64,000 nucleotides of DNA from Candidatus Bathyarchaeota archaeon (GCA_963811105.1 CAWEPZ010000002.1:192001-256000); one strand, 5' to 3'; numbered from the stretch's first letter, positions 27,384-64,000 are shown. Made by a program: numbers and translations. The notes: a model not told the origin generated them from the sequence alone.

Positions 27384-27453
27384 GAAGGCATCGAAAAACC
27401 GCCAAGCAAATCGGTCAAGAAAATTTGACTAAAACCATTCAAGAATGCTTGAC
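27384..27453 (+). repeat. Orphan RRHRKT tail followed by repeat family A site (8-bp spacer)
   Basis: GAAGGCATCGAAAAACCGCC then GTCAAGAAAATTTGAC-TAAAACCA-TTCAAGAATGCTTGAC (27414-27453). Confidence 0.8.
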
Positions 27454-27584
27454 TGCATCAAAAGTTAATGCCCTTCAAGTAAAAGTTGGACAGGTTAGAG
27501 TTTGAAAGCTCTGGATTTTTATGCTGGAAAACTAGGAATTCTAGATATTAGCAAATCTTTAGAAAATCAGGAATAATAATGATT

Positions 27585-28284
27585 TCAAGGATAGCTTATT
27601 ACATAAACTTTGGTTGCTGTTTCTAAAACAAGTTTGGTATTTACAATTTCAAGGAACGGTATATTTTTCTGAATGTTTGGGATATGAATTTCTTGCAAGT
27701 AAATTTTGCCAATGAGATCCATTTTTCTTTCAATACCCTCACCAGTTAATCTTATGAAAATATTTAGCATGGGCTTAATTGATTTTATTCTAAGAGCTAG
27801 AAGCGTTTTTTGGAATCGAATAGATTCTTGAAAAAACAATGTCGTTTCTTGATAGCTCTTTGACTGTTATAGCTACTCCATTTTCCGAATTCATTTTTTG
27901 ATCTATGTTATATATCACGTTTTGACGTTTCGATAGTTCATTAACGTAATCAAAGGTTAGCTCGTAAGGGCAAAACCAACTTGGGGGATCTCCAACTAGC
28001 AGTTTCTTTTTCGCAACTCTTGATTTATCTTCATTCAACCAATCATATCGGTTAGAATTACAATACACTTTCGCATTATCTATATCCTTTCCTTGTTCTA
28101 AATCTAAACCAAAATATATGACCGTCAAATTTCGCACTGGTGTCTTAATGATTGTTTCGACTGAGGGAAGTATTTCAAACCTCAGTCTTTTCCGATAGTC
28201 GTTTATATAATCAGCAACAACTTTGGACAATAACCCGACCAGAAAGCTCGAGAGTGCAGTAAGCGCAAATTCCAAACTAGACAT
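27585..28284 (-). pseudogene. Hypothetical membrane-anchored protein split by a frameshift in an A-run near 27810
   Basis: ORFs 27790-28284 and 27585-27839 join if one A is removed (IPKTLLAL...). Confidence 0.5.
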
Positions 28285-28607
28285 ATAGGACTTGTTGTTT
28301 AGAATTACTATTAAGAGTTTGTTGAAACCCCTTTTTAATTTGAAAAAAAATTTACTTAATATTCAACAATAAAACTTGCACATAAGAAGAACAAATGTTT
28401 GTGTGCTTTGACTTTTCTGCACAAACCCTCTTTTTCGAGTCTTCATGTGTAGAATAATCAATGTAAAGTTGGTCAAGAAAGGAGCCTGTGTGAGAACTCG
28501 GTTAGTTTTCAAAAGATTGCTAACTTGCTGTTAAATAGAAAGGCTGACAAGGGTTATTATTGACTTGATGATAGTAACTTTCCAACGATAAGTTGACTTT
28601 TTGCATA

Positions 28608-28661
28608 GTCTCAAAGTTTGACTAACCCCAGTCAAGAATTCTTGTCGATAAACCTTTTATT
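28608..28661 (+). repeat. Repeat family A site plus TATA box
   Basis: GTCTCAAAGTTTGAC-TAACCCCA-GTCAAGAATTCTTGTC, then CTTTTATT 23 nt before ATG 28685. Confidence 0.8.
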
Positions 28662-28684
28662 GCCAATGCATGGCAAGAATAAGT

Positions 28685-30217
28685 ATGGGATATTTACGTA
28701 AGAGTTTAGCTTTAATGCTTATAATTTTATTTGTCACCCCACTGATTACTTTTCAATCTATAAATGTTAAAGCTGAATCCTCAAAAACAATATTTGTACC
28801 AGATGATTTTTCTACTATCACATTAGCGATAGGAAATGCTTCAAATGGTGACTTAATTTTTGTTAAAAAGGGAATATATGAGGAGCATTCTCTAACTATT
28901 AACAAAAGCATCACAGTTATTGGAGAAAATAGCGATAACACGATAATTAAAGACATAGACCAGCCAACTCAGTTTTTTGACTCTTCTCTATTTATCGGAC
29001 CTACTGCAATAAGCATAAGTGCCGATTACGTAAGGATTTCAGGTCTGACTATTTTAAGTAATGGAACTGCTATTGGTGGCGGCGGCTTCAAAACTTTGAT
29101 AACTGATAACAAATTAGATAGCATTAACTTAGACAAGGGGTCTTATCAAACTATTGCAGATAACATTGTTTCATCAATTAATTGTAGAGTCCCTTTTACT
29201 TACATTGTTAATAATACTCTAAAGGCTTCATACAGTGTAATAACCATACAAACCCCAAGCAATGATAACGTGATATACAATAACAAAGTAAAGGGTGTCA
29301 ATACAACCAGCAACTTAGATGTAGCTGGCATTAATGGGATTTATGTGTCCGATTCAAGCAACAACCTCATAGCTGAGAATGTTATTTCAAATGGTGGAGT
29401 CGGTATTCTTATTGATTTGTCAAGTTCGTCAAATAATGTTGTCGCCAACACAGTCTTCAATGGATTTGTTGGCTTAGCGGCAATCCGTGAAAGCAGACAT
29501 AACGTGTTTTATGCAAATACCGTTGAAAATAACACCTCTGCCATCTCAATCGCAGGTTCAGGAAATCTATTCTATGACAATAATTTACTAAATAATTCAA
29601 AATTACTAGAAGATGCAAACAAGATTGTAGGTCCTAATCCATCGACTTCTAACACATTTTGGAATAATGGGAATCAAGGTAATTTTTGGAGTGACTACAT
29701 AACAAAATATCCAGAATCAGTAGAAATTGACAAGAGAGGCATAGGCAATACCCCTTATGTGATAGATGCAAACAATGTAGACAAATATCCGTTATTTTCC
29801 CAATTTGACCAAGAAGCAATAATTAGTTTTCCTCAATGGCTTCCGCCCTTAATCAGCATTGCATCCCCTGAATACCAAAAATACAACGAAGACAAAATTA
29901 ATGTGATATTTACAGTAAACAAATTCTCTTCATTAAGTTATAACGTTGATTGGAAAGAAAACGTTAGCATTGCAGGCAACACAACCGTTGAAAATATGAC
30001 AAACGGTTTGCATAGTATTACCCTGAATGCGAATGATACCTTTGGTAATACTTTCAGTAAAACAATCATCTTCACGGTTGAAAAATCACTGGTAGAAAAC
30101 TTGGGTAATGGTCTGATAATCACAACGATAATAATTCCAGTACCCATATTACTTTTAGCAGTCGGTCTACTGCTTTTCAGAAGGCATCGAAAAACCGCTT
30201 CCAAGCCAAAAGTATAA
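28685..30217 (+). CDS. NosD/right-handed beta-helix surface protein with RRHRKT anchor
   Basis: Signal peptide, VPDDFSTI start, Asn ladders, GNFWSDY, DKYPL, Ig-like domain, TM plus FRRHRKTA. Confidence 0.85.
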   Translation: MGYLRKSLALMLIILFVTPLITFQSINVKAESSKTIFVPDDFSTITLAIGNASNGDLIFVKKGIYEEHSLTINKSITVIGENSDNTIIKDIDQPTQFFDSSLFIGPTAISISADYVRISGLTILSNGTAIGGGGFKTLITDNKLDSINLDKGSYQTIADNIVSSINCRVPFTYIVNNTLKASYSVITIQTPSNDNVIYNNKVKGVNTTSNLDVAGINGIYVSDSSNNLIAENVISNGGVGILIDLSSSSNNVVANTVFNGFVGLAAIRESRHNVFYANTVENNTSAISIAGSGNLFYDNNLLNNSKLLEDANKIVGPNPSTSNTFWNNGNQGNFWSDYITKYPESVEIDKRGIGNTPYVIDANNVDKYPLFSQFDQEAIISFPQWLPPLISIASPEYQKYNEDKINVIFTVNKFSSLSYNVDWKENVSIAGNTTVENMTNGLHSITLNANDTFGNTFSKTIIFTVEKSLVENLGNGLIITTIIIPVPILLLAVGLLLFRRHRKTASKPKV

Positions 30218-30257
30218 ACCTAGATTTAGATGAAAAGCTTGATAAACTTAACTTTAC
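30213..30257 (+). repeat. Repeat family B copy overlapping the stop codon of an RRHRKT gene
   Basis: TATAAACCTAGATTTAGATGAAAAGCTTGATAAACTTAACTTTAC. Confidence 0.85.
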
Positions 30258-30276: not shown

Positions 30277-30524
30277 TTAATTAATTCCAAACGTCATAAA
30301 ACTCTTGCTTGATTGTCGGCTCCACTCGGCAGCGACAAATTGACTCTTTTGTAAAAGGTCGATGAGTTCCTTTTCATAATCTGTTGGCTCCACACCTAGG
30401 ATCTGACGAAAAAACTCAAGCGGATCTGTCTTAAGCGTTTCAACCTTGCTGAGCCTATCCGTCTGTAAAGAGTCAATGTCCTCGCGTGTCTTAGCACGGG
30501 TGTCAATGAAGTTATTTGGCTTGA
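30277..30524 (-). pseudogene. Truncated terminase large-subunit-like N-terminus (provirus relic)
   Basis: Hand translation: DPLEFFRQILGVEPTDYEKELIDLLQKSQFVAAEWSRQSSKS, a degenerate terminase RQxGKS Walker A, followed by a stop. Confidence 0.65.
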
Positions 30525-30970
30525 GGGTTCGTGGATTTTTTTGTAAGGTCCGAATACTTCTCCCTCCATTCTAACAATTCAGCCTCAAGACCCCGATAAT
30601 CAACGTACTCTGCCACGAGATCCTGATACACTTTCACGCCCATAATGATGGTGCGTAAACGCAAAACATCAAGTTTATTTAGTTTTAGTTTGCCCGTTTC
30701 AAGCTGCTGCAGGGCTGCAACTAAGGTCTTGAGTTCTTCCTCAACTGAAGGTAACTCATCGGGCAAAACTAACTTCTCAAGGGTAGATGATGATGGCGTG
30801 TTATTTTCACTCCGATCATCATCTTCTAAGCCTAAGCGCGATCTCTTCATCCGTACGGAAGTAAGGCTTTTGCCCAGAATCTTTGCGATTGATCGCGTGG
30901 ACTTTTTTTCTGTTACGAGCTGTCGAAGTTGCCGTTCCTCTTCAACGGTCCAAGGTTTGCCCTTCGCCAT
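30512..30970 (-). CDS. HTH plus helical protein, putative terminase small subunit
   Basis: MAKGKPWTVEEERQL..IAKILGKS HTH; overlaps the terminase-like relic; paralog at 60873-61196. Confidence 0.6.
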   Translation of the reverse strand: MAKGKPWTVEEERQLRQLVTEKKSTRSIAKILGKSLTSVRMKRSRLGLEDDDRSENNTPSSSTLEKLVLPDELPSVEEELKTLVAALQQLETGKLKLNKLDVLRLRTIIMGVKVYQDLVAEYVDYRGLEAELLEWREKYSDLTKKSTNPQAK

Positions 30971-31398
30971 TAAGATCTTCCTGTCCTGCTGCAGACGTCT
31001 CAAGCTACTGGTTTTCCGCTGATAATTCTGTTCCACCTGTTCCAAGTGTTCCAGACTTTCTGAGCTATTGTTTTAAGATTTTTCCCACAAATAACCCGAT
31101 TATGATTCCGGTTAGGCCTGTAATGGTTGCACCAATCAACTGAAAGGGCATTTAGATAGATGGACAAAATAAGTGGAAAACACTAATACAGAACGCTTGC
31201 AAAAAGGAAGTAGAAACTAGACTGTGGGTGTGTCGATACAGTCACATATTTTCTTAAAACTACATTACATTAGACTACAGCATGTCGAAGGGAACTTGGG
31301 AATAGTTTTATCTACTGGCGATGGGTGAATCTATATTCCTGAGTACTTAAGCTTATAAAGGCATATCTTGACACATAAGACATTGGGAATAAGCGAAA

Positions 31399-37133: not shown

Positions 37134-38186
37134 TTAACGATTACGCTTCCTAAAATGCCAAAACAAGCCAAATCCCACAACGGCAAAAAACGCCCCAGAA
37201 ACAGCTGCAACAACCGTTGTTGGAAAAGGCTCTGATTCTGCCTCCCCATTGAAGTATACAACCACATTGTGTACGCTGTGTGAATATATAATATCCAACA
37301 CCCATGATTGACTCGTTGATGCGATTGCGTATTCAGTTGGTTTGCCGTCTAAGAACATACTAACACCTTCAGGGTCAAATTCAGGGTCTTTTTCTAGAGT
37401 AATCTTAACGTAACCATTTGTTCCACTGAGACCCTCAGCAGAAAAACTAAGAATACGAGTACTCGCATTGAAATTCAACCCAGTTATAGTCGAATTTGAA
37501 GAAAACGCGGTAATGAAATCCCCAAACGATTTAACACCAAGATTAACGCTTACACTTGTCTCGGGATAGGTGGAATTTCCCATCCATGTTGCCTTAACCT
37601 GATAACTCCCATGCAATGGTTTCCAGACCGTCGAGTATTTACCATAACCATCAGTTTCCACTGACGCTATTTCATTCCACATGGCGTTCTCAATGTAGGT
37701 CTTGCTTGAAAGAACAATCCAAGCATTTGGCACGCCTATGCCATTATAGGTTAAATTTCCGCTAATCGCAACTTCTTGTTCAGTGTAGACTGAGTCACTG
37801 CTCAAAGAAATATGAACGGTGACAGGTGTTTGCTCCCTTACCTCTATTTCCATTTCGCTACTGCCTCCAGTCCCTTGAGCATCGTCAACAGTAACGCCAA
37901 CGCTATAAGTACCAGGTTTAGTATAAGTGTGGTTCACAGTGGCGCCAGTTGCGAAGGCGCCATCTCCAAAATTCCAACTGTAAGTGAAAGCACGTGGTTC
38001 GTGATTTTCGTTCCAGTATTGTTCCCACCATAAAGCGTCGAAACTGACAACATCTCCAACCCTTGGCGTAAGTGGAGAGTAAACAAATGAAGGAGTCGCA
38101 TGAACGATTTGCGCATTCACAGTAGACAGATGAGCTAGCGAAATTAATGAAAAAACCATTATGATTGCTAAAGCTGTTTTTTTCAT
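37134..38186 (-). CDS. PKD-domain surface protein with EPFP-type TM anchor
   Basis: YSWNFGDG..VNHTYTKPGTYSV PKD motif; EPFPTT..GLFWHFRKR tail. Confidence 0.85.
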   Translation of the reverse strand: MKKTALAIIMVFSLISLAHLSTVNAQIVHATPSFVYSPLTPRVGDVVSFDALWWEQYWNENHEPRAFTYSWNFGDGAFATGATVNHTYTKPGTYSVGVTVDDAQGTGGSSEMEIEVREQTPVTVHISLSSDSVYTEQEVAISGNLTYNGIGVPNAWIVLSSKTYIENAMWNEIASVETDGYGKYSTVWKPLHGSYQVKATWMGNSTYPETSVSVNLGVKSFGDFITAFSSNSTITGLNFNASTRILSFSAEGLSGTNGYVKITLEKDPEFDPEGVSMFLDGKPTEYAIASTSQSWVLDIIYSHSVHNVVVYFNGEAESEPFPTTVVAAVSGAFFAVVGFGLFWHFRKRNR

Positions 38187-39265
38187 AGACTCTTGCTCCT
38201 CTGGCGTTTCTTGAAGTAGACTAACAAGCCAGCAAACGATATCGCTAAACTAAGCAGCAACGAAGTTGCCCATGAGGGAAACTCTGGAACTGTTGGAGAG
38301 GAAGTTGGACCAAAATTGGGCATAGTTGGGACTACTGTCGGAGTAGGGATTGTAACTGAAATTGGCAACATAATGGGGTTATTATCTTGGTTGTTTGCGT
38401 CTATGATGTATGGGGTATCACCGATGCCATCTCTATTGGCGTCTGTTCCGTTGTAGTCACTCCAATAATTTTCATTAATTATGTTGACGGACCTTGGATT
38501 TCCCCAAGTGAGATAATACGATTCATTGGCTGAAAACTGAATAGTATTGTTAACATAATTATTTTTGCATATGCTGTTATTGTTGGAACCATAGATGGAT
38601 GTTCCGAGTCCTGAGTTTGTTATGTTATTTCCAATTAATTTGTTGTTGTTTGAATATTGAAAATTAACAGCAGTGTCTTGACAGTTTTTTATTGTATTTT
38701 CTGTAATTGTGTTATTGTTGCTGTTTTGCCAAATCTGTACCCCTTCAACACATGATTCAATGTAGTTGTTTTTTACAGTATTTTCATTTGCGTAATTTAG
38801 TTGGATTGCTGATGAGAGTCCAATTGATTCAAAAGTATTTCCAGTTATTTGATTATTATTGCCAAATACTACTATGCCATGGGTTGCTTGTTTTATTTTG
38901 TTTCCTGAAATGTTGCAATAATTTGCCCCAAGTGAAATTCCGTCATAACCATCAAATATAGTCAAGCCTGTTACAGTCACATTATCTCTCTTCACCTTCA
39001 AGCCAGCTGTCACATCAATTACGGTTGCATCCCTATCTTCCCCAACCAATGAGACCGATTTGTCGACTACTGGATTTTCCACATAAGTGCCTCTCTTAAC
39101 GAATATTGTATCTCCAGCGTCTGCAGCGTTAATGGCTTCTTGAATAGTGGGGAAATCGTCTGGTACATTGATTGTTTTAGATTCAGCCTTCACGGGCAAA
39201 TATACAATGAAACATGAAGTTGCCAAGAAGACGAGAACAAATAGCAATGTAGCATTCTTTCTCAT
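38183..39265 (-). CDS. NosD/beta-helix surface protein with PEF tail
   Basis: VPDDFPTIQEAIN, NYWSDYNG, DGIGDTPY, VPEFPSW..GLLVYFKKR. Confidence 0.88.
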   Translation of the reverse strand: MRKNATLLFVLVFLATSCFIVYLPVKAESKTINVPDDFPTIQEAINAADAGDTIFVKRGTYVENPVVDKSVSLVGEDRDATVIDVTAGLKVKRDNVTVTGLTIFDGYDGISLGANYCNISGNKIKQATHGIVVFGNNNQITGNTFESIGLSSAIQLNYANENTVKNNYIESCVEGVQIWQNSNNNTITENTIKNCQDTAVNFQYSNNNKLIGNNITNSGLGTSIYGSNNNSICKNNYVNNTIQFSANESYYLTWGNPRSVNIINENYWSDYNGTDANRDGIGDTPYIIDANNQDNNPIMLPISVTIPTPTVVPTMPNFGPTSSPTVPEFPSWATSLLLSLAISFAGLLVYFKKRQRSKSL

Positions 39266-40182
39266 GTTTTAACTCCCGATTTCGGTCGGCGTTTTTTGAG
39301 GTAAATCAACAAACCAGCAACCACAACAACCGCCACAGAAACGGCGGCGATCAGAAAGGTTGGCAAAGGCTCTGGCTTTGATATAGTGAATGCAATAGTT
39401 TCTGAAGAGCCTACATTTCCAGCTTTATCTCTTGCATAAACTGTAACGTTATGCTCTCCATTCGATAAATCCGTTAGCATTGCATTCCAAGAGACTGTTA
39501 CGTTTTCTTGTCCATCAAGGCTATACGTGACCTGCGATACAGGTTCATCTACTGTAAAGTTTAACGGGATGTTACTCGTATCGAGTGTTTTGTTGACTGG
39601 CAACATAATTTCGATGAACACTGCTTTGGTGAAATTGACATTTGCCGAATCCGCATGCAATTCGATGCTTTCAACAGAGTTTGCCCAGTCATATCCACCT
39701 AGGTAAATGCTCTTCAACGTTCGAAGATAATAACTGGTTGCTTCACAGCTAACCTTAACGGTATGTCCCCCCGCTACCAAGGGAAGCGCAGTTGAGAAAT
39801 TCAGAGTTAACGTTGGAGACGTATCGAAGAGCGAATCTATGTCATGAAATTGAATGATTTGTAATCTGCCATCGACTAGGCAATAGACAGAGGTTATGTT
39901 CACAAAAGTTTCTGTTATCGGAGACCCATCCGCATGCGCACCCGCATTAAAGGCAAACCAACTTTCAGGTTTGATGATGCTAAAGTTCAGCCACACGTAA
40001 TTGTAAATCTGGTTTTGAACTGGTGAATGCATAACTATCGTGGGTAAGGTCGTAACAGGGTCCCTGAAGAAAGCAAATAGTGGTGCAGGATTAGCCGTTG
40101 ATAGATTGAACAACAACCCTCCTGATGCCGCTGAAAAAGTAAGTGCAAAGATGATTGTTAGTGCTACTGCTGTTTTCTTCAT
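39262..40182 (-). CDS. Ig-like surface protein with EPxP-type anchor
   Basis: Signal peptide plus ANP, YSLDG..GEHNVTVYARDKAGN, EPLPT..GLLIYLKKRR. Confidence 0.82.
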   Translation of the reverse strand: MKKTAVALTIIFALTFSAASGGLLFNLSTANPAPLFAFFRDPVTTLPTIVMHSPVQNQIYNYVWLNFSIIKPESWFAFNAGAHADGSPITETFVNITSVYCLVDGRLQIIQFHDIDSLFDTSPTLTLNFSTALPLVAGGHTVKVSCEATSYYLRTLKSIYLGGYDWANSVESIELHADSANVNFTKAVFIEIMLPVNKTLDTSNIPLNFTVDEPVSQVTYSLDGQENVTVSWNAMLTDLSNGEHNVTVYARDKAGNVGSSETIAFTISKPEPLPTFLIAAVSVAVVVVAGLLIYLKKRRPKSGVKT

Positions 40183-41484
40183 TCAGGACTTAACCTCAGG
40201 TTTGCGATTCTTGAAGTAGACCAATAAACCAGCGACCACAATCACTGCGGATGTTCCTGCAACGACAACAACAGTTGCGTTTGGAAAAGGTTCTGTTTCT
40301 TGAAGTTCTTGCAAACCTGAAGGGGATGGACTAGCTGAGGCGTATAGGTGTGATGATGGTTCTGGAGATACATATGAAGAAGGGCTTGGAGAAGGAATAA
40401 ATGAAGGCGAAGGTGAGGCTGACGGTGATGAGCTTTCTCCAATCTTGACTAGCCAAAGACCATTGGTTCCTCCAGATAAGTAGTATGGATTTACGCCTGT
40501 AAAAACGTAACCTCCATCATTAGCCGCTATTACTGAATTAATAAGGTTGCTTCCTGAGTAACCTGAGCTCCACTCTATTTTTCCGTTAGCGTCTGCTTTA
40601 ACGACATATCCGCTGTAGTCCATCGACATGGGTGCTGAGCTGGAAGTAGTGCCAGCAAAAATGTATCCCCCATCACGGGTCAACGCACCTGAATTGGTTG
40701 TATAATAGCTGTCATAACTGTTGCTCCATACGGTATTTCCTTGTATGTCTATCTTGACCAGTTGAGCGGGTTGAGACCCTACCAGCATGTAATTTCCGTC
40801 GCTGGTTTTGATTATGGAACTAACAGTTATACTCTTGTTCCATTGAGTGTTGCCCAGTGAATCGACTTTTATGAGGTACTTTCCGCCTAGAAGGTATCCG
40901 TCATCAATCGCTTCAGCAGCGCATCTCAGATAATAGGAGTCTCTGGGCTCAGCAAGTGTTCTGTTCCATTGTATGTTTCCGTTTTCATCAGTCTTAACAA
41001 TGAACCCGCTGTTACCAGGAACACAGCCTCCTGCTAGAAAGTATCCTCCATCTCTTGTTTGGAGAACCGAATTGAATTCAATAACATCGTTTGATCCGTA
41101 AAAGAAGCCTTTACTCCACTCCATGTTTCCAGCAGAATTAGTTTTCAGGAAATTGAAGCCTGCTCGAGACATGCAACCTAAAGCGTAGCCGCCATCTATC
41201 GTTTGAATAACAGATAACGCCCTGTAGGGTTGGTCAACCTCTCCATATGTTCTGCTCCATTCAATATCGCCTACAGAGTTAGTTTTGACCAGCACACTTT
41301 TTCCGTCAGATTTTCCCGCTATGGCGTATCCTCCGTCACTCGTTTGTATGACTGACTCTCCATCTCCATTCACCAACACTTTGTTCCATTGGGCTGGTGG
41401 CTCAGCGTTGACAAGATGTATCCCAACTACTGTTGTTAACAAAAATGCTGAAGCAAGCACTATTGTTATCGTTGTTATCTTCAT
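40183..41484 (-). CDS. Beta-propeller surface protein (QTxDGGY repeats) with EPFP anchor
   Basis: Repeated QTSDGGY / VKTDxxGNxxW units, Ser/Pro linker, EPFPN..GLLVYFKNRK. Confidence 0.85.
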   Translation of the reverse strand: MKITTITIVLASAFLLTTVVGIHLVNAEPPAQWNKVLVNGDGESVIQTSDGGYAIAGKSDGKSVLVKTNSVGDIEWSRTYGEVDQPYRALSVIQTIDGGYALGCMSRAGFNFLKTNSAGNMEWSKGFFYGSNDVIEFNSVLQTRDGGYFLAGGCVPGNSGFIVKTDENGNIQWNRTLAEPRDSYYLRCAAEAIDDGYLLGGKYLIKVDSLGNTQWNKSITVSSIIKTSDGNYMLVGSQPAQLVKIDIQGNTVWSNSYDSYYTTNSGALTRDGGYIFAGTTSSSAPMSMDYSGYVVKADANGKIEWSSGYSGSNLINSVIAANDGGYVFTGVNPYYLSGGTNGLWLVKIGESSSPSASPSPSFIPSPSPSSYVSPEPSSHLYASASPSPSGLQELQETEPFPNATVVVVAGTSAVIVVAGLLVYFKNRKPEVKS

Positions 41485-41517: not shown

Positions 41518-41606
41518 CTAAAAGGGTTCTCGTCAAGATTTCTTGACTAACTTAGAAATAAACTTAGTCAAACTTTCTTGACTGATTTTTTTCGATGCCT
41601 TCTGAA
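41518..41606 (-). repeat. Orphan RRHRK tail + family A site (19-bp spacer) + TATA
   Basis: Boxes 41567-41582 and 41532-41547; AGAAGGCATCGAAAA at 41589-41603. Confidence 0.9.
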
Positions 41607-42799: not shown

Positions 42800-42822
42800 A
42801 ATTACTCTTGCGATATTTTGGC

Positions 42823-42877
42823 AATAAAAGGCTATTCATCAAACAATCTTGACTAAGGACAGTCAAATTTTCTTGAC
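42823..42877 (-). repeat. Family A site (8-bp spacer) plus TATA 23 nt before ATG 42799
   Basis: Plus strand ATCAAACAATCTTGAC-TAAGGACA-GTCAAATTTTCTTGAC. Confidence 0.88.
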
Positions 42878-43051
42878 TTGGACCACTCTAATGTTTGCCC
42901 TTGAATTTTATATCTAAGTTTGCATGTTCCAGCTTGCTTGGAGGGTCAAAGGCGAAAAAGTACCATAAACAGGTACTAAGAAATAAGATCTACAATAAAT
43001 TTAAAGAAAACTTTTGCTTAGTCTTTAAGGTTTCTGATTATTGATTAGCAT

Positions 43052-43969
43052 TGTTCTATCTAGAAAATGGGCTACACTTTGTCTTTGAGGTATATTTCTG
43101 CTGGCGTTAAATAATTTATTCCTTCATGAGGCCTTGTATAGTTGTAGTAGCGGATGAAACTCCAGTGCTCATTGAACAGGTGTGATTCCGTCTGGTATGC
43201 TTTATGGAAAGCTTCAATTTTGCCACAGGTGGTAGGTCTACGAACACTTGCCATAATATGCTCAATACCCAGCTCAATGCAATGTCTATTAAACGCAGAA
43301 ATTTCCCCTCTTGCAGGCGTAAACTGTATTCCCTGATCCGTAAGAATCTGCTTAGGAGTACCATACTTTTTCACTGCTCTATCAAGAAGCATCATTGCAT
43401 TCTCTCCAGTTGGACTCCAAATCTTAACTGATCCAGTGATAAACCTTGAATGGTCATCTTGGTAACTAATCATCCAATAGTCATCATTACACAGCTTGAA
43501 ATCCGCTTGCCAAAGGCTGTTATTGTGCTCTCTTTGGAAACGCTTAGTTCCCCAGGTCTTTCTAGGAGAAGTTACAGGATGGTTTAGGCCAGCTTCACAG
43601 ATGATGCGGTAAACTTGATTATGGTCTATCGTACAGCCTTTAAGTTTAAGGCAACCGGCGATTTTCTTAGGTCCCCATTCATAACGCTTGCGTAGTTTGA
43701 TTACTTTATCTTTGATAAAATCGTCCGGTTCATAACCAATTGGACGACCTTTAGGTTTCTCTTCTAGACCCTTCCAACCCTGGGTTTGGTACCGGTTCCA
43801 CCAGCGGTAAAACATCTTCCTGTCAATTTGAGCTTCGGAGCAGATGTCAGTAACCGATCTACCTTCCAGCTTTCGTTTGATGATCCATTTTCTAAGCTTT
43901 TCCCAATCTCTATCCAACCAAGCACTCCCCCGATTTTGGAAGAGTGTAGCCTATTTAAAAGATAGAACA
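43052..43969 (-). mobile_element. IS481-family insertion sequence with 16-bp target duplication
   Basis: 26-bp imperfect inverted repeats with TGT..ACA ends; GATTATTGATTAGCAT at 43036-43051 and 43970-43985. Confidence 0.92.
43072..43917 (-). CDS. IS481-family DDE transposase (rve core)
   Basis: HTH, WGPKKI, WQADFK, DDHSRF, LTDQG, GKIEAFH, YNYTRPH. Confidence 0.93.
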   Translation of the reverse strand: MDRDWEKLRKWIIKRKLEGRSVTDICSEAQIDRKMFYRWWNRYQTQGWKGLEEKPKGRPIGYEPDDFIKDKVIKLRKRYEWGPKKIAGCLKLKGCTIDHNQVYRIICEAGLNHPVTSPRKTWGTKRFQREHNNSLWQADFKLCNDDYWMISYQDDHSRFITGSVKIWSPTGENAMMLLDRAVKKYGTPKQILTDQGIQFTPARGEISAFNRHCIELGIEHIMASVRRPTTCGKIEAFHKAYQTESHLFNEHWSFIRYYNYTRPHEGINYLTPAEIYLKDKV

Positions 43970-45976: not shown

Positions 45977-46040
45977 ACTTTATCCTTAAAAGATTTGCAG
46001 TAAAGATTCCTTGACTAAACTCAGTCAAACTTTCTTGACT
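45977..46040 (-). repeat. Family A site plus promoter, 63/64 nt identical to 54520-54583
   Basis: ACTTTATCCTTAAAAGATTTGCAGTAAAGATTCCTTGACTAAACTCAGTCAAACTTTCTTGACT. Confidence 0.93.
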
Positions 46041-46174
46041 TATTTTTCTATTACCAAACATTTCTTTGTAGATAGTTCTTCTGACAATTGTTGCTTTTTC
46101 AGAGTCCTTGAAATAGGTTTAAATGTTGAGATATAAAGCAGATTGTAATAAATGTAATTTGAGCGGAGAAGTAA

Positions 46175-48096: not shown

Positions 48097-48150
48097 GATA
48101 AAAAGTTGTTCGTTAAATTTTCTTGACTAAGATTAGTCAAGATCTTTGAC
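48097..48150 (-). repeat. Family A site (8-bp spacer) plus TATA
   Basis: Plus strand GTTAAATTTTCTTGAC-TAAGATTA-GTCAAGATCTTTGAC. Confidence 0.88.
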
Positions 48151-48404: not shown

Positions 48405-48504
48405 TTGAAATTAATTCCTCAATTCTTGATATGGATTAACCTCGCTTAAAAGATTTTAGAAACAACAAATAATCGTTAATTTGGATTTATATTTAACGCT
48501 TACC

Positions 48505-48556
48505 GTCAAGAATTCTTGACTAATTCTAATTAGTGGTTAGTCAAAAGTTTCTTGAC
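48505..48556 (-). repeat. Family A site (19-bp spacer) directly after an RSHRKT gene
   Basis: Perfect palindrome GTCAAGAATTCTTGAC at 48505-48520; second box 48540-48556, 4 nt from the stop at 48561. Confidence 0.92.
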
Positions 48557-48560
48557 CTGA

Positions 48561-50333: not shown

Positions 50334-50480
50334 TTAGCGAAGCAGGAATAGGTTAATCAAATTTTCTTGACTGATTCTTTCAGTGTCAAACATTTCCTTG
50401 TGTCTCTTTCTAACGGTCGCCAATGCAATTGGTATTGTGAGTAGTATGGGTAGGATTGTTAACCAAGAAAACTCAGGAAG
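50334..50480 (-). pseudogene. Orphan PEF tail running into a degenerate family A site
   Basis: PEFSWLTILPILLTIPIALATVRKR out of frame directly after the RRHRKTAKPS* gene; boxes at 50356-50371 and 50385-50400. Confidence 0.8.
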
Positions 50481-51783: not shown

Positions 51784-51806
51784 AACTCTATTTTCAATTA
51801 GGTTCG

Positions 51807-51861
51807 AATAAAAGGTTTGCAGTTAAACAATCTTGACTGAGCTTAGTCAAACTTTCTTGAC
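51807..51861 (-). repeat. Family A site (8-bp spacer) plus TATA 23 nt before ATG 51783
   Basis: Plus strand GTTAAACAATCTTGAC-TGAGCTTA-GTCAAACTTTCTTGAC. Confidence 0.9.
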
Positions 51862-51999
51862 GTAATTGGATGCTTATTTTGTGGAATTGATGCAAGAGCA
51901 AGCTCTCTGTCGAAAACCCTTTGGCTGGAACCTTCATATTGAAAACATAGCTTGCCTATATTTTTTTGTCTCGAAATTATTTTTTTTAATTGTCTTTTC

Positions 52000-52344
52000 T
52001 TATTTCTCAAAAGTTTCCAAAAGTTCTTCTAGCAACATTTTGACTTTGGGAAGACTAAGCTTTGCCATTTTCCAAAGCTTGTCAGGTTTTACCGTATGGT
52101 ATTCATGGATATGTTTGTTTCTTATATCATTGAGGATCCGCCAAGGAATTTGAGGATTATTTTCCTGTACAGACTTTGGAATTTTGTCAACCGCTTCACC
52201 TATTATCAAAACGTCGTATGCAACTGAATTTATTTTTTCATAGTTATTTGAAAAAGCCTCAAAACTGATATCTTTGGTCGATTTCTCAACTTCATTAATG
52301 GCATTTATCATGTCATCTAAGTATACTTTGAAATCTTTGTTCAA
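52000..52344 (-). CDS. HEPN ribonuclease toxin (DUF86/HepT-like)
   Basis: YLDDM, IIGEA, IPW, RNKHIHEY (Rx4-6H). Confidence 0.9.
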   Translation of the reverse strand: MNKDFKVYLDDMINAINEVEKSTKDISFEAFSNNYEKINSVAYDVLIIGEAVDKIPKSVQENNPQIPWRILNDIRNKHIHEYHTVKPDKLWKMAKLSLPKVKMLLEELLETFEK

Positions 52345-52640
52345 ACTTTTATTGCCTCTTCAAGTATCGGGCCTTTCAAACGGGGTTTTAAAGCGGTCTT
52401 TTCAATCAAATCAACATCCACACCTAATTCATCTTTGAGAAAAAGACGCAGTTCAATAAATTTGAAGAGATCAACATTGTTTGGTTCAATAAAAGTTACT
52501 AAAACATCCAAATCACTTTTTTCTGTCGCTTCCCCTCTAACGTAAGAACCAAAAAGTTCGATGACATCTACTGAAAAATTCTCTTTAAGAACGGGATTTA
52601 AAACCTTTAGTCGACGTTTTATTTCTTTTAGTGACTTCAT
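52341..52640 (-). CDS. Minimal nucleotidyltransferase antitoxin (MntA-like)
   Basis: LFGSYVRGEATEKSDLDVLV; overlaps the HEPN gene by 4 nt. Confidence 0.9.
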   Translation of the reverse strand: MKSLKEIKRRLKVLNPVLKENFSVDVIELFGSYVRGEATEKSDLDVLVTFIEPNNVDLFKFIELRLFLKDELGVDVDLIEKTALKPRLKGPILEEAIKV

Positions 52641-52759
52641 TTTCAAATATTTCTATGAAGAATTAATATAAAGACTTTTGCAGCATTTCTAAGCGTTATC
52701 TGGATCATTGATAACCACATTACCAACGGCTCAAAACAATTTTCACAGTCAAACTTTCT

Positions 52760-52895
52760 CTTATGTAAGGAAACGATCCAAGGCAACTCCAAACAGACTT
52801 CCGACTACCTTTTACTCCATTTCATCCACACTTAAATTTCTTTCACCTATGTATTTCAGTCAACATTCTGTTATCAGCGAACCAAGTCGCCTACG
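52760..52895 (-). mobile_element. Second relic of the IS110 3' non-coding end, at the same position in a family A box
   Basis: CTTATGTAAGGAAACGATCCAAGGC...TTATCAGCGAACCAAGTCGC homologous to 36258-36395; preceded by GTCAAACTTTCT (52748-52759). Confidence 0.85.
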
Positions 52896-53365
52896 CCATT
52901 GATTGTCAATTAGGGAAGCGGGAATTCTGGCAAATGGCCACGTAAAACGTCGCCGTGGACCTTAGCGACGAAACCCATCCGCTGCATCGCAAACATAAAC
53001 AGGATATCTGGTGTAACGCATCGATTGAATTTAAAACGGTAATTACTCTCAAAGACACATCTTTTTATTAACACGCAGCTGGTACCCGCCATAACCCAGC
53101 CGTTAAGGATCTTGCCCTCAACAGCGTTTAGTGGTAAATACCAAACAGTCATGTTTTCATCTATGAAGCCTAGAATTAAGCCTTGGCCGTTATGTCGACG
53201 CACAAACCCACAAGCAATATCAACATTTAAGCCGAGTAACTTCTGGATAGAAATGAATTAGGACTGTAGTCAATCAAACCTGGAGCCAAAGGAATTACTC
53301 ACGCTCAATAGGAAATAAAGTACTTCCAAAAGCTAAGACCTACATTTCACTCCGCAGATGAGTAC

Positions 53366-53420: not shown

Positions 53421-53421
53421 T

Positions 53422-54519: not shown

Positions 54520-54583
54520 ACTTTATCCTTAAAAGATTTGCAGTAAAGATTCCTTGACTAAACTTAGTCAAACTTTCTTGACT
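54520..54583 (-). repeat. Family A site plus promoter (near-identical to 45977-46040)
   Basis: GTAAAGATTCCTTGAC-TAAACTTA-GTCAAACTTTCTTGAC. Confidence 0.93.
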
Positions 54584-54690
54584 AAGTTGTGATAACAGCT
54601 AAAAACGATTGGCAAGTTTTTTGCAGAAAAAAGCTAATATTTGCAAAGAAACAAAATAAGAAGAGAAACTGATGTCTCTGCCCGTGCAGG

Positions 54691-55482: not shown

Positions 55483-55518
55483 AACTACCCGCTAAAAGAA
55501 ACACAATAGAAACTTTGC

Positions 55519-57553: not shown

Positions 57554-57673
57554 TAGGCATCCACAAAATACATTCTTGCATGTCATATTTAGCTCTCCTA
57601 CTGGAACAAAGTGTTCCAAAACTGGAACAGATACATTTCATAGACATCACAGATATTCAACTTGACTGATTTT

Positions 57674-58294: not shown

Positions 58295-58332
58295 TTATTT
58301 CTACTAAGAGTTATCTTCATAAGAGTTTTTTC

Positions 58333-58491
58333 GTCAAACTTTCTCGACTATATTCTTTTTTGTCAAACATTTTTCTGCACTTTCTTCCTAATTATCGCCA
58401 GTGCAATTGGTATTGTGAGTAGTAAGGATAGAATTGTTAGCCAAGAAAACTCTGGAACAGAAGGCGTTGGAGTTGGTATACCTTGATTCAT
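58333..58491 (-). pseudogene. Orphan PEF tail + family A site + promoter of the next gene
   Basis: PTPTPSVPEFSWLTILSLLLTIPIALAIIRKKVQKNV* (stop 58363-58365); box GTCAAACTTTCTCGAC at 58333-58348. Confidence 0.8.
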
Positions 58492-58673
58492 TGGCTCACA
58501 CCTATTAGATGATTGTACAAATAACATTGCTAACACTTTGAAAATTTACGGACCAAAATAAATAAACTCTGAAGAAACATTCCAAGGCTAACCAATTCCT
58601 TTTATAATTTTGTGCAATGCTTTTGGATTAGGGTTATGGTTTCAGCGGGTCATAACTTTTTGGTTTCTGCGGG

Positions 58674-59613: not shown

Positions 59614-59734
59614 AAACGGTCAGTTAATAAAATATATAATGACAACTATAAACGATTCGGATTAAAAAAAATATATCATAGGATCCATCTTTTAGTCCAG
59701 AACAAGCAAATTATCCTAAAAGTTTTTCAGCTAT

Positions 59735-60334: not shown

Positions 60335-60435
60335 GAATGTCACTGTCGATATTAAGATGCAGTAAGATACTAATAAGCGTTTAGAAGCTTCCAAACTATT
60401 ATCAAATTAACACCAAAAAACCATAAGACACCCCT

Positions 60436-60684: not shown

Positions 60685-60809
60685 CGCGAAGCTAACAACC
60701 AAAATGGCTCCGCTCCATTATTGCTTTCTCCAAAACAAATTTGGTTCTGTTTGAAGAAACGTTGATGTGCTTTTGAATTCTGGTTTTGTTGTTTTTGTTG
60801 TTTTTTAGT

Positions 60810-61196
60810 GCTGAGTCTATCTGTCTGTGAAGAGGCAATATCCTCTCGGGTTAAATCTCGGTATCGATGAATTTATTTGGTCGGAGGGTTCGTGGATTTT
60901 TTTGTAAGATCCGCATACTTCTCCCTCCATTCTAGCAATTCAGATTCAAGCCCACGATAATCGACGTATTGCGCTATGAGTTCCTGGTATACTTTGACGC
61001 CCTGGATGATGGTGCGTAAACGCAAAACATCCGTCTTATCCAACTTTGGCGTCTCAAGACCTTTCAAGGCTGCAACTAAGGTCTTGAGTTCTTCCTCAAT
61101 TGAGGACAACTCAGGGGGCAAAACTAACTTATCAAAGGTAGTTGTTGATGGCGTGTTTTTTTCACCCTCATCAACAACTACTAAGCCTAAGCGCGA
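60810..61196 (-). pseudogene. Second provirus relic: 5'-truncated paralog of 30512-30970 plus start of the terminase-like gene
   Basis: LVLPPELSSIEEELKTLVAAL..LRTIIQGVKVYQ..KKSTNPPTK, then a degenerate PNKFIDT..TREDI..QTDRLS. Confidence 0.8.
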
Positions 61197-61431
61197 TGCT
61201 TTCATCTTTCAACCTCAAAAGAATTATTCCGGGAGGTTTGAAAAAGCCTGCCAGTCTTCCAAAGTCCTTATCATTGGTAATAATAACTCGACGCTCTTTG
61301 ACTGCTAACCTCAGGATCTCCTCATCTTCAGCTCCCTTCATGCATTCGATGACCGAGACCGAGTCATATTTCAACTCTTTGAGCTTCTGCGAAACCAAAA
61401 TTCCTGTGCATTCATCGACTAGAAACTTCAA
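61171..61431 (-). pseudogene. DUF5615 PIN-like toxin, C-terminally truncated at the junction with the provirus relic
   Basis: KFLVDEC, GAEDEEIL, RVIITNDKDFG, PPGIILLR; sequence switches to the relic at ~61196. Confidence 0.8.
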
Positions 61432-62624: not shown

Positions 62625-62769
62625 TCTGCAACCACCGGTGCCTTAATCTCCAGCGGAATCGGCAAAGAAGCAACAAACGTAGCTGCAGCGCCCGCAACTG
62701 TGCCAGCCAAAACGATTAGGACTTCCTTATTCTCAGATACCTCTATCTCATCAACCAAACAAAATCACC
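62625..62769 (-). pseudogene. Truncated duplicate of 61869-62063
   Basis: 135-bp direct repeat 61940-62074 / 62635-62769; homology stops next to the hicA stop. Confidence 0.8.
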
Positions 62770-62937
62770 TCCAAGAAGCATTAACAGGAAAAATCATTTT
62801 GCGATAAATCATGTTAGTGATGGCAGGTTTCCTGATAAAAGAGACCCGCGGCAAAGCACGCCAATAAAAAAAGATTCTACCGATAAACAACACCTAAAAA
62901 ACAACAGCAAAACAAAAGAAAACTCAGTCAGAAGTTG

Positions 62938-63050
62938 GATAAAGTTAAGTTTATCAAGCTTTTCATCTAAATTTAGGTTTATGCTTTTTAGGCGTCAGTT
63001 ACTTGAATTGGTGTTTTTCGATGCCTTCTAAGAATTAGCAAAGAAATAAG
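62938..63050 (-). repeat. Orphan RRHRKT tail plus repeat family B
   Basis: ISLLILRRHRKTPIQVTDA* then GCATAAACCTAAATTTAGATGAAAAGCTTGATAAACTTAACTTTATC. Confidence 0.85.
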
Positions 63051-63166
63051 TACAATTTTCTATGGATAAAAATTAGTTTTTTTGCGATTGATTAACCCAC
63101 TTTTGGATGAAGCGGCAGGCATGTTTCTGAACGCTCACCATCAAAACATTTTTGTTCTGATTAGGA

Positions 63167-63655
63167 TTAACCGAAGATTTCACGGACTTGATGAAGCGTT
63201 GGTAAATTCACGGGCAGATACTCTTTTCCTTTGATTAGTAACCAAGTGCCAAGTCCAATAGCGAAAAATGCTTGGAAAAAGAAGACTTGATAAGAATACA
63301 TCGCATGGTTGGAATGGTCAGTTCTAAAAGAAAAAAACCACAATGCATTCACACAATTTAGCAAGGGATAAAGACCTATAAATGTTAGAATAAAAAAACC
63401 TCCCGAAGCAATCAGAGCATCCACAACTCTTTGTATTTTAGGTTTCCTAAATTTGTTAATAAGCCATAAACCCGCAACCAAAATTAATGAACCAGAAGAA
63501 AAGTAAAGGTTTCGCGTGTTATCGCTAAGGCTGATATTAAACACTATTATGTTACTTAATGCAATGTAAATTAGTTCAGCACCAATAGAAAAAACGAAAA
63601 CGCCTAAGAATCCTAATAATGCATAAAATTTGGCTTTATTATTTAGGTTAATCAA
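63167..63655 (-). CDS. Four-TM hypothetical membrane protein
   Basis: Four hydrophobic segments, 162 aa. Confidence 0.65.
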   Translation of the reverse strand: MINLNNKAKFYALLGFLGVFVFSIGAELIYIALSNIIVFNISLSDNTRNLYFSSGSLILVAGLWLINKFRKPKIQRVVDALIASGGFFILTFIGLYPLLNCVNALWFFSFRTDHSNHAMYSYQVFFFQAFFAIGLGTWLLIKGKEYLPVNLPTLHQVREIFG

Positions 63656-63677
63656 CTGCTTTTTCCCCTGCTCTAAC

Positions 63678-64000
63678 CTAAGTATAGTTCAAACAGATTA
63701 AAAACTTGTTAGCCAAAAGTTTCTTGACCTTATTATTTTGGCGTTTTCGCTGGCTTCTAAAAAGCAATAGGGAGACCACGATAATTGCTAAGACTGCAGT
63801 GATGGCTATTATGGGAAGCGTTTGAGTTGCAATTGGCGAATTGGTTGGAGTCGGTGTTGGCAATTCAACTGTGAAGTTTACAGTTTGTACGCCCATATTT
63901 CCAAACGTATCATTAGCGTAAATTGATATGTTATGCATGCCGCTTGTCATGTTAGCAATAGTGAAATTACCTGTTACCGTTATGTTCTGTTCTCCATCGA
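63678..64000 (-). CDS. 3' end of an Ig-like surface protein with RSQRK anchor (5' end outside window); reads through a family A half-site
   Basis: DGEQNITVTGNFTIANMTSGMHNISIYANDTFGN similar to 50473-51783; box GCCAAAAGTTTCTTGAC at 63712-63728. Confidence 0.8.
   Translation of the reverse strand, partial: DGEQNITVTGNFTIANMTSGMHNISIYANDTFGNMGVQTVNFTVELPTPTPTNSPIATQTLPIIAITAVLAIIVVSLLLFRSQRKRQNNKVKKLLANKFLICLNYT

What the first reader, a model, noticed from the sequence alone, without database searches (positions are those of the whole stretch)
27384..63760. Integron-like cassette array of surface-protein genes delimited by a bipartite GTCAAG-N4-CTTGAC site
Seen: about 17 copies of a site made of two ~16-bp imperfect palindromes, at 27414, 28608, 36246, 41532, 42838, 46000, 46711, 48112, 48505, 50356, 51822, 52748, 54543, 57661, 58333 and 63712, plus a half-site at 11138. 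In gene orientation one box follows the anchor-coding 3' end of a gene (4 nt after the stop at 48561; overlapping stops at 46708, 57674 and 58363). The other box directly precedes the BRE/TATA of the next gene. The genes in between are unrelated, mostly co-oriented, heterogeneous in base composition and interspersed with TA modules. Known: integron arrays and pdif modules have this repeat-gene-repeat layout with TA cassettes, and tyrosine recombinases act on inverted arms with 6-8 bp spacers. The site does not match the attC GTTRRRY/RYYYAAC consensus, and the cassettes carry their own promoters. Inference: a site-specific shuffling or accretion system for archaeal cell-surface genes. No recombinase gene is in the window, and a shared transcription-factor operator is a live alternative.
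Basis: partly seen in the sequence, partly recalled or inferred. Interest (0 to 1): 0.92.

Follow-up and report, generated by a model that had tools for sequence, protein, structure and literature searches.

The report
Shared two-box promoter of surface genes
The repeated site is most likely the binding site of a gene regulator, built into the promoters of about thirty cell-surface protein genes of an uncultured soil archaeon, and related genomes have swapped and re-ordered these genes at that same repeat.

Summary
The repeat is real: 19 matches against 2.9 expected. It is not integron-like. In gene orientation it reads: distal box GTCAAGAAAnTTTGAC, spacer, proximal box, 7 nt, CTTTTAT TATA box, about 30 nt, ATG. 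The site is tied to the downstream gene's 5' end. Box-to-ATG is mostly 37-50 nt, while stop-to-box ranges from -19 to 1174 nt. About 30 such promoters lie across the genome. Of 22 downstream ORFs of at least 150 aa, 15 have a signal peptide and a C-terminal anchor, against 174 of 2113 ORFs genome-wide.

Across 120 genomes of the genus (Bathyarchaeia), the gap between boxes is only 7-9, 16-21 or 29-30 bp, steps of about one helical turn. That pattern points to one protein binding both boxes. One paralogue of a triple winged-helix regulator carries the site upstream in 12 of 14 species.

No integrase lies in either array. However, against a close relative, 6 of 8 synteny-block ends in a homologous array fall in or at the distal box. 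So promoter-gene units are exchanged at the repeat, probably by recombination between the repeated boxes.

Verdict: an operator and regulon, with cassette-like shuffling as a side effect.

The parts
27412..27457 (+). Relic two-box site (24-bp centre spacing) with no TATA box and no gene after it. It is preceded by a fragment that codes for a C-terminal basic tail.
   Evidence: 44.4 bits, model positions 2-47 only; no ORF
28613..28663 (+). Two-box site plus TATA box, promoter of the beta-helix surface protein gene 28670-30217
   Evidence: 37.8 bits; ATG 22 nt after the box; Beta_helix/NosD
28670..30217 (+). Secreted, C-terminally anchored beta-helix protein (515 aa)
41518..41584 (-). Two-box site with 35-bp centre spacing plus TATA box, promoter of the four-gene operon 37134-41484
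   Evidence: (47.0 bits)
37134..41484 (-). Operon of four surface proteins (PQQ-like 433 aa, Big 306 aa, NosD 360 aa, PKD 350 aa)
42821..42879 (-). Two-box site (24 bp) plus TATA box, promoter of 42224-42799 and 41643-42227. A metagenome contig switches partner inside its distal box.
   Evidence: 51.2 bits; joint 51852 to 42869, sides of 45 nt and more than 160 nt
45984..46041 (-). Two-box site (24 bp) plus TATA box, promoter of 45410-45955 and 44379-45413
   Evidence: (53.3 bits)
48097..48143 (-). Two-box site (24 bp) plus TATA box, followed by a 42-codon signal-peptide ORF. The gene is probably frameshifted and continues as 46708-47955.
   Evidence: (31.8 bits)
48495..48558 (-). Two-box site with about 36-bp spacing. 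The distal box has a 5-nt centre and starts 4 nt after the stop of 48561-49280.
   Evidence: (32.8 bits)
50351..50373 (-). Single box 83 nt upstream of the operon 48561-50273 (small HTH protein, a 172-aa protein and a 239-aa anchored protein)
   Evidence: (14.0 bits)
51806..51863 (-). Best two-box site in the genome, promoter of the NosD/beta-helix surface protein gene 50473-51783
   Evidence: (58.5 bits)
54527..54584 (-). Two-box site, promoter of the NosD surface protein gene 53422-54498. The promoter and leader are nearly identical to those at 45984-46041.
   Evidence: (54.7 bits)
58319..58353 (-). Single proximal box plus TATA-like element, promoter of 57674-58294
   Evidence: 14.1 bits
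63712..63729 (-). Single variant box (5-nt centre) before a TATA-like element and gene 63167-63655
   Evidence: The profile did not pick it up.
52748..53253 (-). Copy of a repeated element of about 480 nt that ends on the right half of a box. A second, partial copy lies at 36246-36396.
43036..43969 (-). IS element (rve transposase 43072-43917) inserted between two units. It is absent from contigs of 4 of 4 metagenome runs.
   Evidence: joint 43035 to 43970, sides 72-167 nt
52000..52646 (-). HepT/MNT toxin-antitoxin pair between surface-gene units. No site of its own.

Best explanation
The boxes are a two-part operator that forms the upstream half of a stereotyped archaeal promoter. The order is: distal box GTCAAGAAAnTTTGAC; a spacer of about 8, 18 or 29 bp; the proximal box; 7 nt in the BRE position; a CTTTTAT TATA box; about 30 nt; ATG.

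About 30 genes or operons of this Bathyarchaeon have this promoter. Most encode secreted proteins with a C-terminal membrane anchor.

Inferred: a dimeric winged-helix regulator binds each palindromic box, and the two dimers contact each other on one face of the helix. Because the site lies directly upstream of BRE/TATA, the regulator more likely activates than represses.

The best candidate is a genus-wide family of about 315-aa proteins. They have three winged-helix domains and four invariant N-terminal cysteines. One paralogue carries the same site in its own promoter.

Because the module is repeated, its distal box is also where promoter-gene units have been swapped and re-ordered between related genomes. 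This most likely happened by recombination between the repeated boxes, not through a dedicated recombinase.

Shown: the anatomy, distribution, phasing, gene class, site-regulator linkage and junction positions. Inferred: protein binding, the sign of regulation, the identity of the regulator and the recombination mechanism.
For: - Enrichment: 19 matches against 2.87 expected.
- Promoter geometry: a TATA box lies 6-7 nt after the proximal box in 12 of 15 sites chosen only by their boxes. Box-to-ATG is mostly 37-50 nt, while stop-to-box spans -19 to 1174 nt.
- Distribution: 30 strong sites on 6 contigs, in two arrays plus isolated sites.
- Gene class: 15 of 22 downstream ORFs of at least 150 aa have both a signal peptide and an anchor, against 174 of 2113 ORFs genome-wide. 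All 11 strong sites (25 bits or more) in 10 loci of 9 genomes have the same architecture, and 8 of them, in 7 relatives, lie upstream of such a gene.
- Genus range: the two-box pattern is found in 17 of 24 other genomes of the genus and in 0 of 16 genomes of other families. The reversed control gives 0 everywhere.
- Phasing: of 150 listed matches in 120 genomes, with any gap of 1-31 allowed, the gaps are 7-9 (96), 16-21 (48) and 29-30 (6), with none between.
- Regulator linkage: the site lies upstream of clade-B regulator genes in 12 of 14 rows, against 0 of 22, 0 of 5 and 0 of 5 in the other clades. It stays there although the neighbouring genes differ.
- Regulator domains: Pfam TrmB/HTH_24 and an ArsR-like stretch; the model has three winged-helix domains with mean pLDDT 83.
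- Positional rule: binding upstream of BRE/TATA activated transcription in 2 of 3 templates, while binding downstream of the promoter repressed all 9 such templates. These are passages on TrmBL1 in PMC4706686.
- Junctions: 6 of 8 block ends against G041 lie in or at sites. One slot between two distal boxes is filled with unrelated genes.
- Recombinases: none in the arrays.
Against: - There is no binding, transcription-start or expression data. No RNA run holding the stretch was listed.
- The regulator assignment rests on one conserved linkage. By the strict pattern, 8 genomes of the genus have the motif but no clade-B paralogue was found in them. The universal clade A, or an unrelated factor, may therefore be the binder.
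- The co-occurrence test in other families was uninformative.
- Some sites have no TATA box or no gene after them: window 27412, and G041 C53:39530, where the next gene is convergent.
- The recombination part rests on one genome pair plus short contigs.
- BLAST block ends are drawn towards any conserved repeat.
- Two breakpoints in the window are not at boxes. The left edge at 27339 lies 75 nt from a box. The PKD gene block 37216-38221 has no site at its ends.
Confidence: 0.7

Rival explanations
1. A dedicated site-specific recombination system, integron-like or shufflon-like. The boxes are core sites for a recombinase that inserts, excises and re-orders promoter-bearing surface-gene cassettes.
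For: Block junctions against G041 fall inside or at the distal box in all three junctions that can be resolved (J1, J3, J4). A whole unit between two distal boxes is replaced by unrelated genes. A metagenome contig switches partner inside the distal box at 42869. The site-plus-gene unit of the regulator paralogue sits in different neighbourhoods in two species. A repeated element abuts the box centre in 5 of 7 copies.
Against: No tyrosine recombinase lies in or next to either array, and the genome has no serine recombinase match. A 4-nt centre is shorter than the 6-8 bp spacers of tyrosine recombinase core sites (established knowledge). The fixed distance to the TATA box and the helical phasing of the boxes are not needed for recombination. 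Isolated single sites occur throughout the genome. The outer ends of the G041 array and two window breakpoints are not at boxes. The distal box is the longest stretch of identity between sites, so homology-driven crossovers would land there too.
Confidence: 0.1
2. A pure regulon operator. The match between breakpoints and boxes is an artefact: rearrangements are only tolerated between genes, the intergenic spacers are short, and BLAST extends matches through any conserved box.
For: Stop-to-box spacers are often under 100 nt. Block B's end at C53:35698 simply runs through a site that resembles every other site. Most metagenome joints have sides of only 20-45 nt, and the tool warns about such joints. 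Two breakpoints are not at boxes.
Against: At J3 the own genome has a 73-nt spacer between stop and box, and none of it is shared. Identity starts at the first base of the distal box. At J1 and J4 the identity to one parent runs through the upstream spacer into the box, and the identity to the other parent begins inside the box.
Confidence: 0.15
3. A mobile promoter or MITE-like element that spreads by transposition and brings a promoter to whichever gene it lands next to.
For: There are about 30 copies with high similarity. Two promoters (45984-46041 and 54527-54584) are nearly identical through the leader although their genes differ. The own genome and G098 hold more copies than most relatives.
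Against: There are no terminal inverted repeats or target duplications around the module. The spacers between boxes differ in sequence and come in three phased lengths. The sites are conserved upstream of orthologous regulator genes across 12 species. The downstream genes belong to one functional class.
Confidence: 0.05

Closest known systems
TrmB/TrmBL1 operator (TGM motif) of Thermococcales
   Same: A palindromic operator for a winged-helix archaeal regulator, found at many promoters of one functional class. The position relative to BRE/TATA decides the outcome, and upstream sites activate (passages of PMC4706686). The candidate regulator here has a TrmB-type winged helix.
   Different: The motif is different (6-4-6, not 6-5-6). 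Here there are two boxes at helically phased distances. The candidate protein has three winged-helix domains plus a four-cysteine N-terminus, and lacks the TrmB sugar-binding domain. It has no whole-chain match in the PDB. The targets are surface proteins, not sugar metabolism genes.
Integron cassette arrays (intI, attI, attC), including those reported in Archaea
   Same: A repeat-gene-repeat layout, unrelated co-oriented genes, TA modules between units, and exchange of units at the repeat between related genomes.
   Different: There is no adjacent integrase. The repeat lies at the 5' end of each unit and is part of its promoter. There is no attC-type R/L box structure, and the units are not promoterless. 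Of the archaeal integron paper (10.1101/2022.02.06.479319) I saw only the search listing and the start of the abstract.
Cooperative two-operator control with helical phasing (lambda cI, LacI, AraC and DeoR types; Ptr2 upstream sites in Methanocaldococcus). Recalled, not looked up.
   Same: Two similar palindromes whose allowed separations differ by whole helical turns. The site lies upstream of the core promoter.
   Different: Those are single, well-studied loci. Here the arrangement is copied at about 30 promoters and has three spacing classes. Binding has not been shown.
Rearrangement at dispersed short repeats (REP/BIME, Correia elements, shufflon sfx repeats). Recalled.
   Same: Short repeated palindromic sequences between genes mark the rearrangement junctions. 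An unrelated element sits at the repeat centre, as IS elements do in REP units.
   Different: Here the repeat is a promoter operator with a fixed place in the promoter. Shufflons need the Rci recombinase, and no counterpart was found here.

Membership tests
Integron | An integron integrase (tyrosine recombinase) gene next to the array | tested here: not met
   PF00589 gives 16 matches in the genome, none in the window (C2:192001-256000) and none in C11:610-643 kb. The nearest is a broken fragment at C11:655875.
Integron | An attC site at the 3' end of each promoterless cassette | tested here: not met
   Stop-to-box distance is -19 to 1174 nt, while box-to-TATA is fixed and box-to-ATG is mostly 37-50 nt. 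Every unit has its own TATA box.
Integron | An attC sequence or structure recognised by an attC model (IntegronFinder) | not testable with these tools
   No attC covariance model was available. Rfam found nothing in the window at gathering scores.
Integron | Cassette content differs between strains with boundaries at the sites | tested here: inconclusive
   Met in the C11 array against G041: 6 of 8 block ends, and one replaced unit. Not met at window 27339/30282 or at the PKD gene.
Xer/dif-type (pdif) modules | 28-bp sites with two 11-bp arms and a 6-bp spacer, alternating in orientation around the modules, acted on by XerC/D or XerA | tested here: not met
   The boxes are 6-4-6 and occur in pairs as direct repeats, all pointing towards the downstream gene. 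Action by XerA was not testable.
Archaeal transcription-factor operator / regulon | A palindromic site at a fixed position relative to BRE/TATA | tested here: met
   12 of 15 sites chosen only by their boxes have the TATA box 6-7 nt after the proximal box.
Archaeal transcription-factor operator / regulon | The same site at many unlinked promoters of functionally related genes | tested here: met
   30 strong sites on 6 contigs. 15 of 22 downstream ORFs have a signal peptide and an anchor, against 174 of 2113 genome-wide.
Archaeal transcription-factor operator / regulon | The site is conserved upstream of orthologous genes in other species | tested here: met
   Clade-B regulator gene: 12 of 14. 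8 of the 11 strong sites lie upstream of signal-peptide/anchor genes in 7 relatives.
Archaeal transcription-factor operator / regulon | A cognate DNA-binding protein shown to bind, with an effect on transcription | not testable with these tools
   There is only a candidate from the site-gene linkage. No RNA data.
TrmB family regulators (for the candidate protein) | An N-terminal TrmB winged helix plus a C-terminal sugar-binding domain | tested here: not met
   The TrmB winged helix matches residues 224-280 only, at 27.1 bits against a cut-off of 25.6. No TrmB C-terminal domain was found, and the model shows three winged-helix domains.

The most novel reading that the evidence does not exclude
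The distal box is a true recombination site. A so far unrecognised recombinase, or the box-binding protein recruiting one, moves promoter-bearing surface-gene cassettes in and out of arrays. This would give these archaea a programmed way to vary their cell surface, and the same boxes would serve as the operator of the regulon.
Probability: 0.12. Interest if true: 0.85.

Novelty: new variant of a known kind. Interest (0 to 1): 0.5.

Why it matters
Bathyarchaeia are abundant in soils, peat and sediments and are almost entirely uncultured. I found no described regulon or operator for them.

This finding gives a testable promoter grammar with three phased spacings. It gives a defined set of about 30 co-regulated surface-protein genes per genome. 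It also gives a candidate regulator with an unusual triple winged-helix, four-cysteine build.

It further shows how a repeated operator can make gene arrays behave like cassettes. Units are swapped at the operator between related genomes. That may explain the fast turnover of the surface proteome, and it warns against reading repeat-gene-repeat layouts as integrons.

Tried and rejected
- Rfam over the whole window at gathering scores, and over 52600-53450 at E up to 1, found nothing.
- RNAalifold on 7 copies of the repeated element gave a weak fold: -7.8 kcal/mol, covariation term -0.01. I do not call it a structured RNA.
- Expression: no RNA holder was listed for window 41000-50999, so I make no statement on expression.
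- Read laying used contigs only. Parts without cover say nothing. Joints with sides of 20-45 nt were not counted as evidence.
- Regulator and motif in other families: single-box counts equal the reversed control in 10 genomes. One two-box pair lies at G025:C36:10133-10173. The test is uninformative.
- Fold search of the regulator model against the PDB found no whole-chain match (best E 0.03). Only single winged-helix domains resemble ArsR/SmtB and MarR proteins.
- DNA search of window 40001-60000 across 120 genomes of the genus scored only two candidates per genome. It returned the IS, the TA pairs and the small HTH gene, and no further junctions.
- The viral collection gave 2 matches on one contig with the same promoter-gene architecture, and nothing more.
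- Literature: the search for GTCAAG + archaea + promoter + palindrom gave 4 unrelated papers. The Bathy-6 cMAG paper (PMC11697101; passages and section 13 read) describes genomic islands but not this site. Its supplementary text on the other islands was not available to me.
- I considered the small HTH genes inside the array (49800-50273, 59735-60394) as the regulator. I did not pursue them, because only weak HTH hits support them and a single box precedes just the first.
- The complex prediction, metagenome contigs and protein database searches were not used.

Full report
**Observation.** The pattern GTCAAG-N4-CTTGAC with up to two mismatches occurs 19 times in the window. Shuffles give a mean of 2.87 and a maximum of 7, and 0 of 100 reach 19. 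Reading the 17 listed places and scanning with a profile built from the genome's own sites sorts them as follows.
- Nine are true two-box sites: 27414, 28608, 41532, 42838, 46000, 48112, 48505, 51822 and 54543.
- Three are single boxes. 58333 and 63712 sit next to a TATA-like element. 50356 lies upstream of a gene start and has an AT-rich TATA-like stretch downstream.
- Two are right half-boxes that abut another repeated element (36246, 52748).
- Two are box-like strings in or at the conserved C-terminal coding tails of paralogous genes (46711, 57661).
- One is a lone half-site (11138).

The genes between the sites are NosD/beta-helix, PKD, Big and PQQ-like proteins, HepT/MNT and PIN modules, and two IS transposases. 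Most lie on the minus strand.

**Anatomy.** In gene orientation every good site reads: distal box GTCAAGAAAnTTTGAC, a spacer that usually starts with TAA, a proximal box GTCAAGA...TTnAC whose right half is less conserved, 7 nt, then CTTTTAT, and an ATG some 30 nt later.
- Among 15 sites picked only by their two boxes, 12 have a [CT]TTT[TA]-type TATA box 6-7 nt after the proximal box.
- Over the 30 strongest sites in the genome, the distance from the proximal box to the start codon is mostly 37-50 nt.
- The distance from the preceding stop codon to the distal box runs from -19 to 1174 nt. The preceding ORF may be an anchored protein, a toxin-antitoxin gene, a transposase or nothing.

The site therefore belongs to the 5' end of the downstream gene. 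Its closeness to some 3' ends follows from tight gene packing.

**Distribution.** The whole genome (3.49 Mb, 15 contigs) has about 30 strong sites. One array lies in the window (C2:219-257 kb), a second at C11:610-643 kb, and isolated sites lie on C1, C2, C9, C11 and C12. Of the 22 downstream ORFs of at least 150 aa, 15 have both an N-terminal signal peptide and a C-terminal hydrophobic anchor with a basic tail, by a crude rule. The same rule finds 174 of 2113 ORFs genome-wide.

Record titles of related loci name Bathyarchaeota/Bathyarchaeia MAGs, so the archaeal reading of the promoter holds. The strict two-box pattern is present in 17 of 24 other genomes of the genus and in 0 of 16 genomes of other families of the order. 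The reversed control pattern gives 0 everywhere. The own genome has 18 copies, more than any relative in that sample. All 11 strong sites (25 bits or more) in 10 loci of 9 genomes have the same box-TATA-ATG layout. Eight of them, in 7 relatives, lie upstream of signal-peptide/anchor proteins.

**Phasing.** I searched 120 genomes of the genus for a distal box followed by GTCAAGA at any gap from 1 to 31 bp. 66 of the 120 genomes have matches, and the control gives 0. The 150 listed matches (37 more were not listed) have gaps of only 7-9 (96), 16-21 (48) or 29-30 (6), with nothing between. The three classes are about 10.5 bp apart, while the proximal box keeps its place next to the TATA box. This is the signature of one protein complex that must reach both boxes from the same face of the helix. 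Recombination core sites or attC sites have no need for it.

**Candidate regulator.** One strong site does not precede a surface protein gene. It lies 125 nt upstream of a 311-aa protein at C11:1147706-1148638.
- Pfam finds a TrmB/HTH_24 winged helix at residues 224-280 and an ArsR-like stretch at 66-98.
- An AlphaFold model (mean pLDDT 83) shows an N-terminal helical part with four invariant cysteines, three winged-helix domains in tandem and a long C-terminal helix.
- No solved structure matches the whole chain.
- The family is found in 23 of 24 other genomes of the genus, with two or three paralogues each.
- In a maximum-likelihood tree of 46 copies, the fast-evolving clade B has the site upstream in 12 of 14 rows (scores 14-58 bits). 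The slowly evolving clade A has it in 0 of 22, clade C in 0 of 5, and copies from other families in 0 of 5.
- The neighbours of the clade-B gene differ between the own genome and G001, yet the site stays with the gene.

This makes the family the best candidate for the box-binding protein, with clade B autoregulated or regulated by clade A. It is an inference. By the strict pattern, eight genomes have the motif while no clade-B copy was found in them. The test in other families was uninformative. In the TrmBL1 study, binding upstream of BRE/TATA activated 2 of 3 templates, and binding downstream of the promoter repressed all 9 such templates (passages of PMC4706686). By position alone I therefore favour activation.

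**Integron test.**
- PF00589 gives 16 matches in the genome. None lies in the window or in the second array. PF00239 gives none in the genome.
- The units carry their own promoters, and the repeat is at their 5' end.
- The closest assembled relative, G041, is 98% identical at the methionyl-tRNA synthetase gene. It is colinear with the window up to 27339. There the window's segment 27340-30282 is replaced by about 4 kb that encodes a 599-aa ORF which I read as primase/helicase-like (not searched against any family library). That segment holds the relic site, the site at 28613 and the beta-helix gene. The breakpoints lie 75 nt from a box and 65 nt after a stop codon, and the G041 segment has no sites.
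- The PKD gene 37134-38186 has a 94% counterpart in G041 in another context, with ends not at sites.
- Most of window 33-64 kb has no counterpart in G041 or G042 apart from site-length matches.

**Junctions at the boxes.** The second array tells a different story. G041 contig C53 is colinear with own contig C9 on both sides. Between those flanks it carries a surface-gene array made of four blocks that are 90-96% identical to pieces of the own C11 array, in another order and orientation.
- Six of the eight block ends lie inside or within 5 nt of a site in G041. The two outer ends do not.
- In the two junctions with both parents visible (J1, J4), identity to one parent runs through the upstream spacer into the distal box, and identity to the other begins within the box.
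- At J3, identity begins at the first base of the distal box, although the own genome has a 73-nt spacer before it.
- Between two conserved distal boxes, G041 has genes of 321 and 148 aa where the own genome has a 556-aa gene. They have no orthology. The proximal half of that G041 promoter resembles a different own promoter.
- A 1.2-kb metagenome contig, present in two runs, matches 42869-44789 at about 99% (without the IS) but switches inside the distal box to a different proximal half.

So promoter-gene units bounded by distal boxes have been exchanged. The distal box is also the longest tract of identity shared by all sites. Recombination by short homology would therefore place crossovers there without any special enzyme. 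One genome pair and short contigs cannot tell this from site-specific recombination.

**Verdict.** The finding is a genus-wide operator and regulon for cell-surface proteins in Bathyarchaeia, with a helically phased two-box design and a candidate regulator. The repeated operator doubles as the seam at which surface-gene units are shuffled. The integron analogy fails on its defining features.

Noticed in passing
window 52748-53253 and 36246-36396; also G000 C4:445-954, C9:352557-352983, C6:22929-23405, C9:16075, C11:452037: A repeated element with a shared 3' module of about 150 nt. In 5 of 7 copies it ends exactly on the right half of a box. In three copies the half-box is followed at the normal gap by a proximal box. 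There is no Rfam match and only a weak consensus fold. It may be a mobile element that targets the box centre.
   Followed up: partly
window 43036-43969: The IS element with an rve transposase is absent from contigs of all four metagenome runs laid (joint 43035 to 43970, 16 letters shared), so it is a recent insertion in this genome. A 93% copy lies at C2:521127-522049.
   Followed up: partly
window 45984-46070 and 54527-54615: Two promoters are nearly identical from the distal box through the leader, while the coding sequences after the ATG differ. This suggests copying or conversion of promoter modules between units.
   Followed up: no
window 30283-31145 and 60809-61204; many copies in G000 (C3, C6, C7, C11) and in G041: A multi-copy element of about 0.9 kb with a 177-aa ORF (weak TnsD-like hit) flanks the arrays. 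In G041 a copy lies at the left edge of the translocated array.
   Followed up: no
L137 (G041:C57), about 4 kb next to the methionyl-tRNA synthetase gene: The close relative carries an integrated element here, encoding a 599-aa ORF that I read as primase/helicase-like (no family search run) and a 142-aa ORF. The window has the relic site and a surface protein gene at this place.
   Followed up: partly
window 49800-50273: A small HTH protein gene, heading a three-gene operon that ends in an anchored protein. It is conserved at 71-82% nucleotide identity in many genomes of the genus, far better than the surface genes around it.
   Followed up: no
window 48540-48556 and 63712-63729: Variant boxes with a 5-nt instead of a 4-nt centre.
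   Followed up: no
L006 4108-5346 (G000 C11, next to the regulator gene): The gene upstream of the site-bearing regulator gene encodes a 412-aa protein with a signal peptide and a C-terminal anchor. By eye it has PQQ-like beta-propeller repeats; I ran no Pfam scan on it. The Bathy-6 genome paper reports this gene class as unusually numerous.
   Followed up: no
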